DNA of 63,881 nt, filler included, from Reticulomyxa filosa (lineage: Eukaryota; Protista; Foraminifera), in the NCBI GenBank assembly GCA_000512085.1. It is 24 parts of 24 records of this genome, joined end to end, with 100 filler letters (N's around TTAATTAATTAA, not from the genome) between each part and the next. Parts side by side here need not be neighbours in the genome. Positions count along the whole stretch, not along the records: positions 26,798 to 27,895 come from ASPP01043545.1; 23 more parts are not named here. One strand, given 5' to 3'. This document shows, piece after piece, positions 12,754 to 52,809 of this stretch (the stretch's first letter is position 1; each line of letters opens with the position of its first letter). A program made the translations under genes and the position numbers. The notes beneath the pieces were generated by a model. The model had not been told where the DNA came from. It saw nothing but the letters and a program-made list of their open reading frames with translations, and searched no databases.

Positions 12754-13103
12754 NNNNNNNNNNNNNNNNNNNNNNNNNNNNNNNNNNNNNNNNNNNNTTA
12801 ATTAATTAANNNNNNNNNNNNNNNNNNNNNNNNNNNNNNNNNNNNNNNNNNNNAAAAAAAAAAAAACACCCCAAAAAACAAAACAAGTCACAGTTCTACC
12901 ACTGGCTGCTTTTAGTTACAACGTCCAACTTTTTACATACACTAGTAAACGTTAGCGTCTCTAATGTACTTAAATAATAAATGTCCGAGACAGTTTTAAT
13001 TCAAATACAAATAGTTGACAAAGATTAAACACCAAAAAAGTTAAAATTTACTCACCAAGCAGTTGAAAAAAACAAAACGGGACTGTCAAAAAAAAAAACA
13101 TTC

Positions 13104-13750
13104 ATGAGTGATAATCGTAAAACTGGACGTAAAGCTAGTGCTAGTGGAAGTGGACGCATAGGGCGTGCCAAAAACACTAGTAAGCCGAAAGAAGTGTTAA
13201 GGACAGGCAAATCTGCGAGAGCAGGCTTAGCACTTCCAGTTGCACGTATTCATCGCTACATGAAACAAAGAAATTATGCCAAACACATTGGTACCGCAGG
13301 CAGTGTATTTTTAGCTGGAGTGTTAGAATATTGTAAGTTTCTTTTTCTTTATTCTTTATTTATTTACTCTTTTCGGAGATGAAGAGTGATCAAATAGGTG
13401 TTGCAGAGTTATTGGAATTGGCAGGAAACGCTTGTTTAGTTTCATTTTGTTCTAGGAAACTTCTCCGGAAGAAAATGTATTAACCAACAAAATTACAAAA
13501 AAAAAAAGCAACATAAAATAAAATAAAAATCAATTCTGCAGGCAAAGACAATAACCGAAAAATAATATCCCCACGGCATATCCTTTTGGCAATAAAGAGT
13601 GATGATGAACTAAATTTGTTGTTGGAGAATGTTTGTATTGCATATGGTGGTGTTCAACCACATATTCACCAAGCACTCATTACTAATAAAAAAAAGGGCT
13701 CACAAGATTCTGACCAAAGTTTTTTTACTCCTCAAAAAGGTTCACAATAA
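13104..13750 (+). CDS. H2A: Divergent histone H2A (157 aa, two introns) with SQ motifs in the C-tail
   Basis: Exons 13104-13332, 13398-13433, 13542-13750 give [87 protein letters not shown]. Confidence 0.95.
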
Positions 13751-24795: not shown

Positions 24796-25183
24796 CATCA
24801 TCAAACCTTACTTTTTTTTTTTTTTTTTTTTTGCATCGCGCTTGTCAACACCATTTCATGAATTATTACACAATCTTTGTGATTTGTTTGATTTGTCTGT
24901 TTTGTGATTGTCGCGAATGTTCAAATGTTGTTTATGCATTGGAAGTTAATATAATAGTTTTACCGGCTGTGTTGACCACTAGCATTTCTTTTCTAACTTA
25001 AACCGAACGTCAAAAACTTAAAACCTAAACGTACATTTATAAAAAATTTATATGACTAACAGCTTCTATCCACACAAACTTTTGTGATTGGTGGTGTACG
25101 AACTAAATACTGAGATGTAATAAAAAAAAAAAAAGAAGCTGACACAATTTACTCCATTTTTTTTGCTTTGTTTTAAGCAAATC

Positions 25184-26581
25184 TCAAAGGCCTTGCGTGT
25201 TTTTTTCCGTTGGAGAGAGCAGTTGATCGTCAATCATATGCTCTTCACTATCTAGGAATTCAACTACATGTTCGCCTCTTTTTTCCAACACATATCCACG
25301 CATTTTATATCGATTGTCCAGATTAGTGTCTTTGGGATCAATTGGTTTGAAATTCCCTTTTTTTTTTTATTTTTTTTATTTTTCACTGTTTGCATTTGTT
25401 AAAAAAAACAAGTTTGCAAATATCTCTACGTACCAGCCTCCATTTTTACGGTCAAATTCCGGATGACAACTTTGGAGTTGCATTTTGCGCGAATGATTAA
25501 AGTGCCGTCCAATTCCAAATTGTGTATTTCAATGAACTCTCCATCAATAGCTAAGGTAGAATCTCCAGTGATATGCACATTTCCTTTGATTTTGCTTTGT
25601 ATTTCTTGGACAGTAACGGCAAAGGATGGATGCAGAACCACTCTTGCACCATATTCCACTGGGATATCACCAAAAAACTTGATTTTCGGTTCACTTTCAT
25701 CAATTCTGGCGCCACCAGCTCGCAATAGCTCGCGATAACATCGATACATACCAGCTTCACCAGAAAATGCTGTCATGGCATATCCTAGTAAGCCATAATT
25801 TTTTTGCGCATCCACAATGTTGTATTTCACCGGCACAAATGCAAACCAAGACGCATACTGAGTAACTCCGACAGCTTCTTTATCTTTTCCAGCTATTTGT
25901 CCATATAGGTTACACAAATTAAATACGTGAAAAGAAAGAAAAAAAAAAAAAAAAAGATGAAAGGGCGAAAAAGAGATAAAGAGAGGAAAAAATGGACTCA
26001 CTCAAAGCTTTTGAATAGTCCTGCATCATTGATTCAAGCACTGCGAATGATTTAAACAGAGTTTTAGTTTCGTCAGCATATGTTACATTGATAAACTCAG
26101 GAATGGCACCTTTGCTTTTTTCCAGCACCCGATTATACGTACCTAGCTTTAAAATGAATGTATTGCAATTGCCAGGGTATTTGCTATATCCAGTTAAACT
26201 ATCCATCACATCTCCTTCGCTATTTCCACAGGAGCGTTGCAGCAGTGAATCCAATTGATTGTATGTCACACTAGTCGTTAATTTATCGCCATTGCCAGTG
26301 TGGCTTAATTGAACGATCGTATCAAAAGGTTGTTTTGGTTTCCGAGGGATTGTGACGAAATTCATATCAAACTGATTGACTACACTCACTCCCAAAGCAC
26401 TAATTAGACTTCGCATGGCCACGCCATTGGTATCTTGCAAAAACACCAGCCAATCAATTCCCATTTCCTTCCATTTTTGAGCTGTTCCTGTGGAATACAT
26501 TAGCGCATGAACAACGCCATGTCCTCCTCGCTTTGATGAAATTTCATATTTTCCCTCCATTGCAAATTCAGCATTACTATT
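25184..26581 (-). CDS. USP: UDP-sugar pyrophosphorylase-like protein (divergent), 5' truncated
   Basis: GHGxVH, WLVFLQDTNG, ALGVS, YNQLD, YPGN, IPEFIN, LESMMQDY, FVPVK and C-terminal MRGY. Exons about 26581-26002, 25892-25434, 25356-25184. Confidence 0.9.
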
Positions 26582-26660
26582 CTTTTGTTTTGTTTTATGT
26601 GCATTCTATATTGTTCATCATGATATATTATACATTTTTGCTGTAGAAACCTCTTTTTTT

Positions 26661-26691
<31 letters not shown>

Positions 26692-27315
26692 GGGGGANNN
26701 NNNNNNNNNNNNNNNNNNNNNNNNNNNNNNNNNNNNNNNNNTTAATTAATTAANNNNNNNNNNNNNNNNNNNNNNNNNNNNNNNNNNNNNNNNNNNNAAA
26801 CGCGTTTCATCTTGCTTTGAATACTTATTTTTTTTTTTTGTAGTTCTTTTTTTAGGTCGAGACATGATTGTCTCTTATTTTTATTTATTTACTTTTTTTT
26901 TTTTTTGAAGTTTTCCTTTTTATTTGGGGAACGACAGATGTTGCTGTCTTTTACTTGGACAAAAAAATAAGTGTGGTGTTTTAACAAATCGTACTTCCTG
27001 GGGCACTTTTATTAATAATGAAAACAGAGTTTCAACAATGAAATAAACCTTAATTTTGTATGAACTCAGACAATGCAATGTTAGTTAAGATCGATATAAA
27101 GAAGCGATAGATTATATGGAAAATAGATGCAACTGCAAAAAAAAATACATAATTGAAATGTAACGTTATACATTAAGTAAATACCATGTTTTACCGAAAG
27201 TGTTTTCTTTCAAGTTAACAAGTCTTAGTTTGCCTAAGTTTTTAAGAGGGACAGTTTGAATAAAAATTCTAGCATCAAGGCAGTTCATTTGTAAATAGCG
27301 ATAGAGAATTGACGA

Positions 27316-27850
27316 ATGAGAGGCGTGAAATTAGTAACAATAGGTGATGGAGGAGTGGGTAAAACCTGTTTTCTGATTACTTACACAACAAGAAGCTTTC
27401 CAGCGGAATATATTCCCACCGTGTTTGACAACTACTCTGCGAACATAACGTGGCAAAACGTACCATTTCAACTTGGATTGTGGGACACCGGGGTAAGTTC
27501 AATATAATATGTGTATACGTATATATTTTTTAGCATATATTGGAACACAATCCATAATGTGCACGTATATACAATTGTGCGAATTGCAACAGGGAAAAGA
27601 AGGTAATGCTGACAACGCATATATGCATCTGAGCTCTCTTTTGACTTAGCCCGAACAATGAGTATTTTTTGTTTTGTTTTAAAGTTGATTTGATCGAATG
27701 GTAATAAAAAAACAAAAGACTATGACCGTTTGCGACCACTGTCGTATCCACAAACGGACGTATTTTTAATATGTTTTGATATCACTCGAAGGCCATCTTT
27801 GCAAAACATAGAAACCAAATGGGTTCCTGAGATCGCACATCATGCTCCTG
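27316..27850 (+). CDS. RAC: Rac-like Rho-family small GTPase, 3' truncated, with a 10-nt micro-exon
   Basis: [23 protein letters not shown] and [16 protein letters not shown], in exact register with Rac1 numbering. Exons 27316-27492, 27593-27602, 27719-27850. Confidence 0.95.
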
Positions 27851-28078
27851 GTTTTTTTTTTTTTTTTAAAAAAGTCTTTGATATATGCATATGTANNNNN
27901 NNNNNNNNNNNNNNNNNNNNNNNNNNNNNNNNNNNNNNNTTAATTAATTAANNNNNNNNNNNNNNNNNNNNNNNNNNNNNNNNNNNNNNNNNNNNAAAAA
28001 GACAAAAAAATAAAAATAAAAAAAATAACCAACACATACACACACACACACACAAAGAAATCCATTCAAATTCAAACA

Positions 28079-48860: not shown

Positions 48861-51800
48861 AATGCACTGTCTATCACACGCAAACAACCGTTGCTAAATG
48901 AATCAGTTTGAACAGCTCCACAGTAATTGTCGTTCCATGTTGACGTTTTGATTAGTGTTCGTTGATATTGTAAGTAAATTAAGTTTTGATTTCCATTGAT
49001 TGTATTCTGTTTGAAGTGGACATTGTTCCATTGCATTATTCCAGTTGTGTTGTAGGTGTTAGTTGTTTGAGGGCAAACCCAATTTTTGTTGCATTTGCTC
49101 GAATCGGTGCTTGTTGGCACTGAAGCAATTAGAGGACCATCGTTGCTGATGAAGTTCACCTGATTGAGTAAAATTCGTGCAAATTCTAGATTTTCTGGAA
49201 GTCCTTCGATTGTGATTAGTGGATAGGTGCTTGTCGTGGAACTTGTCCAATTGAAATTGTTAATGGCAAAACTTGCTTTGCTTGCAGTTGTCTTTGGTTG
49301 AATTCTCAAAAAGTTGTTGTAATGTTGGTTAATGTGTATATTGCTTAGAGTTGCCGACGAGGTTTCAAACGAGTATAGTATTGTTCCGTTTGTGTTTTGA
49401 AAAGTATTGCTTGACAAGTGTATGTTCGACCACGTTTGCCCATTGATGAGAAAAGATCCATGAGGATACAAAATGTTTGAAATTTGATTGTTTTTCACTT
49501 GGACATCAACACACGAGGCTTGAATCCATACCGTGTCGGTGATATTGATAATGTTATTGTTACTAATGTCAACAACAAGTTTGGTATTGGTTGCATTGCA
49601 TTTGGACTGTTTGGTGCTGTCAATTGATGCATCAATCAATGGGGAACTTGAGTGAACATAATTTTTCCATGTCACCTGGCGGAATATGATTTTGGGTTGA
49701 GTGGAAGCTTTGCCCGGTACAAAATCGGTGGTTACAATTGTGGTTTTTTGATTGTGATCTAAAACAATATTTCGAAAATATGCTTTGTCATTGGAGGACA
49801 AATTTTCCAATACAAACAATCCCATCTGCCAATTGTTCAAGCGCGAAAACGAACAGTTTTGGATTGAGATAATGTGTGATCGATCGGCATTGTCATTAGA
49901 ACTTCTTTGCCAGCGCATAAGAGAGCCTCCGTTTGCAGTGATGCGATCATAGTTTAATCCGTTGAGAACCACAGACACGTCAGCGAATGAGAACAATGAC
50001 GAATTTTGCGAGGGATTTTGAAGTTCAAACGTGATACCGTCAATGTACAACGAAGCTTGGCCAAGATTTTGTGTCAATTCACTTGCAGTTGCAGCGACAT
50101 GCAATAAATATCCTTGTCCACCACTGTCCGCTGAGCCTTGGTCATGCCATTGCTGGATAATCGAGTTGGCATTGGTATTAACGGATTGCAAAATGATCTT
50201 TCCAACTCCTCCTTCGGAACTTGACATGCAATCTGTGCTTATTGTTTGTTGTAAATTGAACGATGCAACATTTTCGAAATAAAACGCTCCACCGCCGCCG
50301 TTTAAACTTTTGGATTGAAAAAATGTTATATCATTCCAACTGATAGTACTTCCATTCGATGCATAGACGGACCCTCCATTGCAATTACTTTGCTTGCATT
50401 TGTTATACGAAAAAGTAATACTTTGTAGTTTCATTTGGACATCATTGATGGCAATTGCACCACCTCCATTTCCACCATTACAAGTGTTGTTGGAAAACTG
50501 ACTTTCAATTATTGTGAGTACTGATGCCCGAGAATAGACCACACCACCATTGACTGCCCCTGTGCATTGACTCGCTGTGATATTGACCAAGGTCAAATTT
50601 ACACTGTGTTGAGAATATATGGAACCGTAATCGGATGAATCCGACTGATTTGCACATTTTTGATTACTATTTGCACACTGTCTTGGGCGAAAATTGAAGC
50701 ACCCTCGGATGCCAGATTGTTGGAAAAACTACCTCCAATGATAGTGCAGTATACGTTATCAATGGCATATACGGCACCACCTTTGCCGTTGCTTCCAGTA
50801 CTGTGCATGTTTTTGAAAATATTATTTAACAATTGCACGCTCGTGCCAGAGTTTTTCAGCACGACTCCCGAACTTCCTTCGTGAATGGTACTACTACTTG
50901 TTATCGAATTGAATGTGTTTTGATGCAACGAGCCCACACTCGAACTTGTTATGCGAACAATACCATTGCCATACGTATCGCTGGTTTCAAAAGTGTTGCT
51001 TTCAATGAGAAAAGGTCGAGTATTCGACAAACACAAAGCCGAAGTTTTAAAATTTGTCCATTGGTTGTTGGTTATTTTGACCAAATCCACAGAGTTTTGT
51101 GCACTGCTAGAAGCCGTTGAAACAATTTTTACACCAACACAACTTTGAGATTGTTGTGAAGAAGCACTCCACAAAGAGTTGTCAAATACGTTGTTGTCAA
51201 GCCAAAAGTTGATTTGATTGTCCCATAAATTGATTGTGCTGTTTGTAACCTTATTACTTTTGAATGTTGAATCCTTTACAGCCAATAATGACGTGTGCGC
51301 TGTCACCAATGAATCAAAACTGTTCCACTGCATCGTTGTGCCGCTGTTGATTCGTAGCTCACTGCTCTGTGCCTCGATCATGTGAGTACCACTGTTGTTG
51401 AAATATTGCGCTCCGGAGATATTGAGATATGAGTTTTGTGCATTGATTAATGAACCTCCGGAATTTTTGCCAAAATACGCAGTGTTAGATATTGCAAATG
51501 ATGGAACGTTCTTAATGTGAAAAGAGAAAAAAAATTGATTTTATTATTATTATTATAATAGATAAAGAAAGAGGAATAAACAAAGCAATATAACATTACC
51601 TTCAATTGTACAGCAGTTTTCGTATTGTGGTTATTGATAAATGAAATTGGAGTCGTCCAAGTTTGAGCATCAGTGCCATTGTATAAAATCATATAATTTC
51701 CACTGATGGTATTGCTGTCAAATATTACGTTATTTGTGAAAATAATTTGTCCAGTGCCTTGAATACGAATAAGCTGTGCAGCTGCGATATTCAAAAATCG

Positions 51801-52809
51801 CACATTGTCCAAATATAATATTCCGCCGTTGTCAATTTGAAATAGATGGTTAATGCTACGTGTATTGTCCGATTCAAATGTAACGTTCTTGATATACAAA
51901 GTACTGTTTTTGAGAACCGTCAAAATTGGAGAGCTGACGTGAACAGCAGAGGCTGACGTGTTTACGCGAATGAACGTTTCTTGATATGTTTTGCCTTCCA
52001 TTCTAAAGTAGTACCAATCAAAAGTGTAGCTTGATATCAATGGATAGATACCACTTCCCATATTGAGGACATCTCCATCTGTCACAGGTTGTCCTAAGAC
52101 GTAACTAATACTCTTGCATGTTGGAGTTGAAGTCGGAGACATGGTCGGCGCATAGCTCGGGCTTCTGCTCGGATGTCTCGTTGGGTTTCTTGTGGGATGT
52201 CTGGTGGGGGGCTGAGAGGGAGCCCGAGATGGATATTTGGTTGGGTTGTTCGTGGGATGTCTGGTGGGAGGTTGAGAAGGAGATCTCGTTGGATATCTGG
52301 TCGGATTGTTCGTGGGATGTCTCGTTGGAGACATTGACGGAGATCTGCTTGGGGCAGGTGTGGGTTGGTAAGTTGGTTTTGTTGGATGGACTGTCGGCGC
52401 TTTCGTTGGATGTCTCGTTGGATGTTTTGTTGGATGTCTCGTCGGATGTCTTGTCGGATGTTTCGTAGGATGTCTGGTGGGATGTCTGGTAGGGTGTCTC
52501 GTCGGATGTCTCGTCGGATGTTCCGTTGGGTGTCTCGTTGGATGATTCGATGGATATTGTGTTGGACTTCTCGTTGGAGATTTCGTTGGATCCAATGTTG
52601 GACGGTTCGTTGGATGTTTTGTCGGCTCCAATGTTGGAAGGTTCGTTGGACGTTTTGTCGGCCCCGATGTCGGGAGTGTTGGTTGTAATGTGGGTCGCTC
52701 TGTTGGATGTTTTGTTGGGGGGTTCGTCGGCCGTTTTGTTGGAGATTTCGTTGGATTATTAGTTGGATGTTTGGTTGGTTGTTTCGTCGGATACTTTGTT
52801 GGATATTTT
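48861..52809 (-). CDS. Large extracellular protein fragment: PT-rich stalk followed by Pmp/pectin-lyase-like beta-helix repeats (GGAV/GGAI, FxxN)
   Basis: Open through PTRH repeats, one intron near 51511-51599, motifs GKGGAVY, FSNNLASEGASI, NGGVVY, FSNNTC..GGGAI, GGGGAFY. Frameshift near 50650; truncated at both ends. Confidence 0.8.
52119..52809 (-). repeat. 12-bp tandem repeat (CCAACGAGACAT-like) encoding PT(R/K)(H/Y/S) tetrapeptides
   Basis: More than 50 degenerate units seen directly, with higher-order PTRHPTNNPTRYPSRSPSQP-like blocks. Confidence 0.92.

What the first reader, a model, noticed from the sequence alone, without database searches (positions are those of the whole stretch)
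27481..27730. Rac-like GTPase whose switch II comes from a 10-nt micro-exon encoding a natural Q61K (plus A59G)
Seen: exon 1 ends ..TGG GAC ACC GGG|gtaag (27492) and exon 3 starts ag|AC TAT GAC (27719). Direct joining is out of frame. A 10-nt segment cag|GGAAAAGAAG|gtaat (27593-27602) restores frame and register, giving WDTG-GKE-DYDRL where Rac1 has WDTA-GQE-DYDRL. Known: Gln61 positions the hydrolytic water, Q61 substitutions such as Ras Q61K impair GTP hydrolysis, and atypical Rho proteins (Rnd, RhoH) differ at positions 12/59/61. Inference: this is a GTPase-deficient atypical Rac with G12 and the effector loop intact, and skipping the micro-exon (a frameshift) could act as an off switch.
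Basis: partly seen in the sequence, partly recalled or inferred. Interest (0 to 1): 0.75.

Follow-up and report, generated by a model that had tools for sequence, protein, structure and literature searches.

The report
Rac lacking its catalytic glutamine
A Rac-type GTPase gene fragment, likely from a foraminiferan, contains a 10-base stretch that exactly fills the gap in its switch II region and would, if spliced in, put lysine where the GTP-splitting glutamine normally sits, so the protein is predicted to stay mostly switched on; tiny exons at this spot are ordinary, and nothing here shows that skipping it acts as an off switch.

Summary
The sequence observation is confirmed. Exon 1 (27316-27492) aligns to Rac1 residues 1-58 and exon 3 to 63-106. 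The 10-nt AG/GT-bounded segment 27593-27602 is the only one of 20 frame-keeping splice models that restores G60 and E62; 0 of 20,000 shuffles matched it. The gene looks selected: 5 of 60 conserved columns differ against 31 of 46 variable ones (p 2e-10), and two of the five are positions 59 and 61. Impaired hydrolysis is inferred from RAC3 Q61L and A59G data, not measured. Splicing, expression and the two codons are unverified: no genome, no reads, no orthologue (best about 70% identity), and the 1.1-kb contig ends before G4, G5 and the C-terminus. The micro-exon is not special: another eukaryote's canonical Q61 Rac has a 13-nt exon with the same downstream intron. Natural non-Q61 Rho domains also recur (10 of 288 motifs; a G59/R61 case in L009). 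The skipping off-switch has no support. Verdict: a likely independently arisen, hydrolysis-impaired Rac paralogue; modest interest.

The parts
26798..27895 (.). 1,098-nt contig that holds the gene; joined to its neighbours only by N/TTAATTAATTAA/N spacers, so flanking genes are not true neighbours
   Evidence: segment list
27316..27492 (+). exon 1: Met1 to Gly59 (G1 GDGGVGKT, switch [14 protein letters not shown]); in-frame TGA at 27310 rules out an N-terminal extension in this exon
27490..27492 (+). codon 59, GGG (Gly; Ala in 113 of 115 aligned relatives)
27493..27592 (+). inferred intron 1, 100 nt, GTAAGT..CAG, phase 0 after codon 59
27593..27602 (+). inferred 10-nt micro-exon: Gly60, Lys61, Glu62 and the first base of Asp63
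27596..27598 (+). codon 61, AAA (Lys; Gln in 109 of 116 aligned relatives, Lys in 0 of 116)
27603..27718 (+). inferred intron 2, 116 nt, GTAATG..AAG with an A-rich acceptor; branch-like TTGAT at 27685 and 27690; phase 1 in codon 63
27650..27661 (+). possible but unsupported extra 12-nt AG/GT segment; it would keep the frame and insert four residues after Glu62
27719..27850 (+). exon 3: rest of Asp63 to Pro106 and first base of codon 107 ([27 protein letters not shown])
27767..27769 (+). TAA reached if the micro-exon is skipped (stop at codon 76, 81 nt before the next donor)
27851..27895 (+). start of inferred intron 3 (GTTTTT..), cut by the contig end; G4, G5, Rho insert and C-terminus are not in the window

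Best explanation
This is the 5' half of a divergent Rac-like gene whose switch II residues 60-62 likely come from a routinely included 10-nt exon, and whose product is predicted to hydrolyse GTP poorly because it would carry Gly59 and Lys61 in place of Ala59 and Gln61. Shown: the sequence, the register against Rac1, and conservation of the P-loop, switch I and the rest of switch II. Inferred: splicing at these sites; GTP/Mg binding (G1-G3 intact, G4/G5 unseen); loss of the Gln that places the attacking water, hence a mostly GTP-bound protein that would engage Rac-type effectors without needing a GEF and would be controlled by expression, location or turnover, as RhoH and Rnd are. The micro-exon is most likely a by-product of intron gain at two nearby sites; skipping it would give a stop at codon 76 and would be a splicing error rather than a regulated state.
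For: Exact register; unique model among 20; 0 of 20,000 shuffles. No stop or frameshift in 106 codons at about 70% identity to the nearest of 298 fetched proteins. 5 of 60 columns conserved at 90% or more differ, against 31 of 46 variable columns, Fisher p 2e-10, on 116 distinct alignments from 142 proteins; two of the five fall on the named positions 12/59/61, hypergeometric p 0.016, a test made after seeing the result. RAC3 Q61L strongly and A59G weakly to moderately suppress hydrolysis (PMC9473360 passages). Intron sizes and an A-rich AAG acceptor have an in-window parallel, itself inferred from frame continuity (77-nt intron). A canonical Rac in 6 of 86 fetched loci (near-identical copies of one gene) has a 13-nt AGQE exon with the same downstream intron position. 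An unspliced G59/R61 Rho domain exists in L009, and an E61 Rac in a cluster of 3 members from separate assemblies.
Against: One assembly sequence only; no read or transcript confirms the junctions or codons. No orthologue with G59/K61 turned up: 0 of 288 motifs in fetched proteins, 0 matches to a WDT[AG]GKEDYDRL pattern in metagenome and viral contigs. About 45% of a normal Rac is missing, so a downstream break is not excluded. A T-rich AG at 27684 lies 34 nt before the productive acceptor and would give a stop if used. Intron 1 has no YTRAY-like branch motif. No data on a K61 Rac were found in the passages read.
Confidence: 0.6

Rival explanations
1. A silent or recently disabled paralogue of an expanded Rac family; G59 and K61 are real bases but have no function now.
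For: High Rho copy number is reported for this kind of organism (PMC5499878 passages); the model has a long end branch, 0.59 against a median of 0.19; the 3' half is unseen.
Against: Changes avoid conserved columns (5 of 60 versus 31 of 46); no stop or frameshift in 106 codons; all five splice signals seen are canonical GT or AG.
Confidence: 0.14
2. K61 is real and the protein works, but it still cycles or acts otherwise: a GAP supplies the catalytic residue, as recalled for Rap (Asn thumb) and Rab/TBC (Gln finger), or the domain is the N-terminal part of a larger scaffold of the RhoBTB kind.
For: The closest motif match, G59/R61 in L009, heads a Rho-BTB-Kelch protein; several other non-Q61 domains sit in multi-domain proteins; the GAP-facing G12 and N92 are kept.
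Against: No trans-supplied catalytic residue is known to me for RhoGAPs (recalled, not searched); the tree does not group the model with L009 (mostly unresolved).
Confidence: 0.13
3. Base-call errors: the true gene reads A59 and Q61 and is a canonical Rac with a micro-exon.
For: Each codon is one base from the canonical one (AAA/CAA, GGG/GCG); the assembly is fragmented and rich in homopolymer runs; no reads were available.
Against: It needs two independent substitutions; the gene differs from the majority residue of 79 Rac hits at 38 of 107 positions, so it is a divergent paralogue in any case.
Confidence: 0.06
4. Regulated skipping of the micro-exon is the off switch for a constitutively active Rac.
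For: Skipping gives a stop 81 nt before the next donor, a plausible decay target; GTPase-deficient RhoH is regulated at the mRNA level (PMC2565660 passages).
Against: Any exon whose length is not a multiple of 3 does this. The same layout occurs in a canonical Q61 Rac; about half of plant micro-exons are not multiples of 3 and most coding ones are usually included (PMC8831610 passages).
Confidence: 0.07

Closest known systems
Rac1/Rac2/Rac3 (classical Rac subfamily)
   Same: Best PDB matches for exon 1 (E 2.6e-23); identical switch I core and [17 protein letters not shown]12 kept; lies outside the RhoA-like and Cdc42-like clusters in the tree.
   Different: G59 and K61; also G13, R26, D83 at conserved columns; about 65-70% identity; C-terminal half unseen.
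GTPase-deficient atypical Rho proteins: Rnd1-3, RhoH, RhoBTB
   Same: Substitution at positions 59 and 61, the sites named for this class (PMC9029563 passages).
   Different: Gly12 is retained; the residues are Gly59/Lys61; no N-terminal extension; the sequence is Rac-like, so the state likely arose independently.
Human RAC3 Q61L and A59G disease variants; NRAS/KRAS Q61K
   Same: Same positions; hydrolysis suppressed in the RAC3 variants (PMC9473360 passages).
   Different: Here both changes are together in what looks like a wild-type gene; Lys at 61 in a Rac was not among the variants in the passages read.
Ultra-short coding micro-exons (plants, PMC8831610); switch II micro-exons in other Rac genes (L069 group; earlier AI notes on Naegleria)
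   Same: 15 nt or shorter, not a multiple of 3, carries conserved residues; shares the intron within codon 63 with L069.
   Different: Upstream intron follows codon 59 (codon 58 in L069), and the exon encodes Lys61.

Membership tests
Rho family, Rac-like | G1 GxxxxGKT, switch I (F28, Y32, T35, F37, Y40) and G3 DxxG in Rac register | tested here: met
Rho family, Rac-like | G4 (TKxD) and G5 (SA) motifs and the Rho insert helix | not testable with these tools
   contig ends at 27895 in intron 3; no continuation in the window; no genome held
Rho family, Rac-like | C-terminal polybasic region and CAAX box | not testable with these tools
   as above
Rho family, Rac-like | Falls with Rac rather than Cdc42 or RhoA in a tree | tested here: inconclusive
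   outside the starred RhoA-like and Cdc42-like clusters, but the Rac region is an unresolved bush on 106 columns; exon 3 alone scores about equally on Cdc42 and Rac1
Classical cycling Rac | Ala59 and catalytic Gln61 | tested here: not met
   Gly59, Lys61
GTPase-deficient atypical Rho (Rnd, RhoH, RhoBTB) | Substitution at 59 and 61 | tested here: met
   class definition from PMC9029563 passages
GTPase-deficient atypical Rho (Rnd, RhoH, RhoBTB) | Substitution at Gly12 | tested here: not met
   Gly12 kept
GTPase-deficient atypical Rho (Rnd, RhoH, RhoBTB) | No intrinsic or GAP-stimulated hydrolysis; GTP-bound in cells | not testable with these tools
   needs biochemistry
Rnd or RhoH subfamily by descent | Closer in sequence to Rnd/RhoH than to Rac | tested here: not met
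   the best 60 PDB rows for each exon are Rac, plant Rac-like and Cdc42 chains, with no Rnd or RhoH; Rnd and RhoH were not rows in the tree
RhoBTB-type fusion | BTB domains after the GTPase domain | not testable with these tools
   3' part missing
Coding micro-exon | AG/GT-bounded internal segment of 15 nt or less that restores frame and conserved residues | tested here: met
Coding micro-exon | Junction-spanning RNA reads | not testable with these tools
   no run was listed for this stretch

The most novel reading that the evidence does not exclude
Foraminifera evolved their own always-on Rac that mimics two human activating mutations at once (A59G plus Q61K) and, having lost hydrolysis as its timer, is switched off by regulated skipping of the 10-nt exon that carries Lys61, coupling splicing to control of the pseudopodial network.
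Probability: 0.06. Interest if true: 0.72.

Novelty: new variant of a known kind. Interest (0 to 1): 0.33.

Why it matters
If real, it is a wild-type Rac carrying two substitutions known as activating mutations in human RAS/RAC proteins, and an independent origin, outside animals, of the hydrolysis-impaired state of Rnd and RhoH while keeping Gly12. It offers a natural test of how A59G and Q61K act together. It is also likely missed by gene finders: the seven Rac proteins listed for Reticulomyxa filosa in the supplement of PMC5499878 are 165-302 aa, longer than the roughly 107 codons of this gene on the contig, so it is probably not among them. The ceiling is low because non-Q61 Rho domains and switch II micro-exons both recur elsewhere.

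Tried and rejected
No whole genome is held, so paralogues in the same organism could not be compared. No sequencing run, and no RNA holder, was listed for 27250-27850; this is no evidence either way. Three protein searches, one representative search and locus scans found no orthologue: best identity about 70% over the model and 69% over full-length exon 1. One search used a strict threshold and showed 1 of 106 candidates; one search scored only the 7,980 candidates sharing most words and listed 120, which favours canonical Rac. Exact look-ups of five unspliced window translations: 0 of 5 in the collection; the spliced product was not looked up. A degenerate WDT[AG]GKEDYDRL pattern gave 0 matches in metagenome and viral contigs; the Q61 control was run only on viral contigs (2 matches), so the metagenome blank has no matched control. 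Rejected gene models: single intron from 27497 (weak donor, deletes two switch II residues), 18 other two-intron models (lose G60 or E62, or add residues), the acceptor at 27684 (stop), read-through of the unspliced interval (four stops). Two three-intron models with an extra 12- or 21-nt exon keep the frame and are not excluded, but distort switch II. The tree (46 rows chosen by hand from the fetched set) put the model next to an E61 Rac, P0232, at 90/81, below the starred level, so no orthology is claimed. No structure was predicted. Literature: no paper on this gene or on a natural K61 Rac in searches (66 and 67 returned 0 papers); a term search in 12 of 19 supplementary files of PMC8296547 found nothing. 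The genome paper of the presumed organism did not appear in these listings and was not seen.

Full report
Setting. The window is a string of short contigs joined by N/TTAATTAATTAA/N spacers; the finding lies on a 1,098-nt piece, 26798-27895. The AT-rich DNA with short introns suggested the foraminiferan Reticulomyxa filosa (my recall), and earlier AI notes on other pieces of this genome say the same; I did not confirm the species independently. No genome and no sequencing run were available.

Observation. All coordinates are right. Exon 1 runs from ATG 27316 to 27492 and encodes 59 residues that align without gaps to Rac1 1-58. The peptide from 27718 aligns to residues 63-106 of Cdc42 and Rac1. 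Between them a Rac needs three codons and one base. I listed every frame-keeping model with GT or GC donors and AG acceptors: 1 with one intron and 19 with two; only cag|GGAAAAGAAG|gtaatg (27593-27602) gives G60-x-E62-D63. In 20,000 dinucleotide shuffles of the interval, 4,377 held some open 10-nt AG..GT segment but none reached the observed match to GQED, and the pattern is found once in the 63.9-kb window. The introns are 100 and 116 nt. The A-rich acceptor has a parallel in another window gene, a 77-nt intron inferred from frame continuity, and branch-like TTGAT motifs lie 29-34 nt before it. Weak points: a T-rich AG at 27684 would give a stop if used, intron 1 shows no such branch motif, and two three-intron models with an extra 12- or 21-nt exon keep the frame. 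Exon 3 ends at 27850 and the contig stops 45 nt into the next intron; no further Rac exon is in the window. G4, G5, the insert helix and the C-terminus are therefore unseen.

Are G59 and K61 real and selected? The model is a divergent paralogue: 38 of 107 positions differ from the majority residue of 79 Rac hits, and the best identity among 298 fetched proteins is about 70%. Against 116 distinct alignments from 142 more varied relatives, 5 of 60 columns conserved at 90% or more are changed (13, 26, 59, 61, 83) versus 31 of 46 variable columns (Fisher p 2e-10). That is the pattern of purifying selection, not decay. Two of the five changes hit the three positions (12, 59, 61) that define GTPase-deficient Rho proteins (PMC9029563, passages); by chance p is 0.016, a test made after the fact. 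Error would need two separate substitutions. None of this replaces raw reads.

How unusual is it? Among 288 switch II motifs in the fetched proteins, 278 keep Gln61 and 10 do not (one of these, P0221, is an engineered construct); Lys61 occurs once (P0042, a multi-domain protein) and G59 with K61 never. These sets lean towards canonical Rac. Of 36 fetched loci with an uninterrupted switch II, 4 lack Gln61: L009 reads WDTGGREDYDRL, that is G59 with a basic residue at 61, at the head of a Rho-BTB-Kelch protein; L010 and L012 have Ala; L014 has Pro. A full-length E61 Rac, P0302, belongs to a 3-member cluster from separate assemblies and is 68% identical to each exon; the tree joins it to the model only at 90/81. 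A degenerate K61 pattern found nothing in metagenome or viral contigs (Q61 control on viral contigs only, 2 matches). So losing Gln61 is a recurrent minority state; this exact pair was not found elsewhere.

The micro-exon. Switch II is often cut by introns: fetched loci show donors after codon 58, in codon 60, after 61 and in 62. Six of 86 loci, near-identical copies of one gene, hold a 13-nt exon for A59-G60-Q61-E62 between introns of 58 and 54 nt, with the downstream intron at the same base of codon 63 as here. Earlier AI notes report 10- and 13-nt switch II exons in Naegleria Rac genes (not checked by me). In plants about half of the 1-15 nt exons are not multiples of 3 and most coding ones are usually included (PMC8831610, passages). 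A frame-shifting switch II exon thus occurs in ordinary cycling Rac, and needs no regulatory purpose. Skipping here would stop translation at codon 76, 81 nt before the next donor, but nothing shows that it happens.

Mechanism. Shown: sequence, register and conservation. Inferred: splicing; nucleotide binding; slow hydrolysis. In RAC3, Q61L strongly and A59G weakly to moderately suppress intrinsic hydrolysis (PMC9473360, passages; echoed in PMC11364392 and PMC11968283, passages). Gln61 is key for intrinsic and GAP-driven hydrolysis, and RhoH, which lacks it, is regulated through mRNA level and phosphorylation (PMC2565660, passages). Passages of PMC6562738 and PMC9988006 mention Q61K only for Ras, so the effect of Lys in a Rac is extrapolated. 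With F28, Y32, T35, F37 and Y40 kept, the protein would likely bind Rac-type effectors while mostly GTP-loaded. I put this at 0.6; a silent or 3'-broken paralogue at 0.14; a protein that still cycles through a trans-supplied residue (recalled from Rap and Rab GAPs) or heads a larger scaffold at 0.13; regulated skipping at 0.07; base-call error at 0.06.

Comparison with what is known. It works, most likely, like Rnd, RhoH and RhoBTB, but is not a member of those subfamilies: Gly12 is kept and its best solved relatives are Rac and Cdc42. PMC5499878 (passages; supplement rows) reports high Rho copy number in R. filosa and lists seven Rac proteins of 165-302 aa, whose sequences I could not fetch; this gene is probably not among them. 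PMC7600811 (passages) covers atypical Rho in early animals only. Ten searches listed no paper on this gene or on a natural K61 Rac; the library lacks most subscription papers, and 7 of 19 supplementary files of PMC8296547 were not searched.

Verdict. New variant of a known kind, interest 0.33.

Noticed in passing
L012:1123-1830 and L010:1114-1821: Intronless Rac-like GTPase (Pfam Ras E about 1e-42) with a twin-arginine-like N-terminal leader, Ala at 61 and no CAAX box, lying directly after a tRNA-Met and a methyl-accepting chemotaxis gene and before short bacterial-type ORFs. It looks like a bacterial gene of eukaryotic origin that may be exported and hydrolysis-impaired; no TAT signal model was hit in Pfam or NCBIfam at the thresholds used.
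   Followed up: partly
L009:131-1507: Rho-BTB-Kelch protein with an uninterrupted WDTGGREDY switch II (G59, R61), the nearest motif parallel to the finding.
   Followed up: partly
L069:1542-1554 (also L070, L071, L073, L074, L076): 13-nt micro-exon for A59-E62 in a canonical Rac of an AT-rich, intron-dense eukaryote.
   Followed up: yes
L001:1501-2046 (also L018, L019): A canonical, intronless Rac-like gene with a CAAX-type end on a 119.6-kb viral contig, next to what reads as a ribonucleotide reductase-like ORF by eye.
   Followed up: no
P0302: 202-aa Rac-like protein with Asn at 11, Glu at 61 and no CAAX box, in a 3-member cluster from separate assemblies.
   Followed up: partly
window 12854-13750: A histone H2A-like gene (name recalled from its sequence) split by short introns with a short internal exon of about 36 nt; intron-bearing H2A with a divergent N-terminal part.
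   Followed up: no
window 25150-26697 (minus): Multi-exon gene that reads like a UDP-sugar pyrophosphorylase (name recalled; no NCBIfam hit for one exon); used only as a splice-site reference.
   Followed up: partly
window 51450-52808 (minus): Long ORF with many P-T-x-x-P-T repeats followed by a beta-helix-like, Asn/Ser-rich region, likely a surface protein.
   Followed up: no
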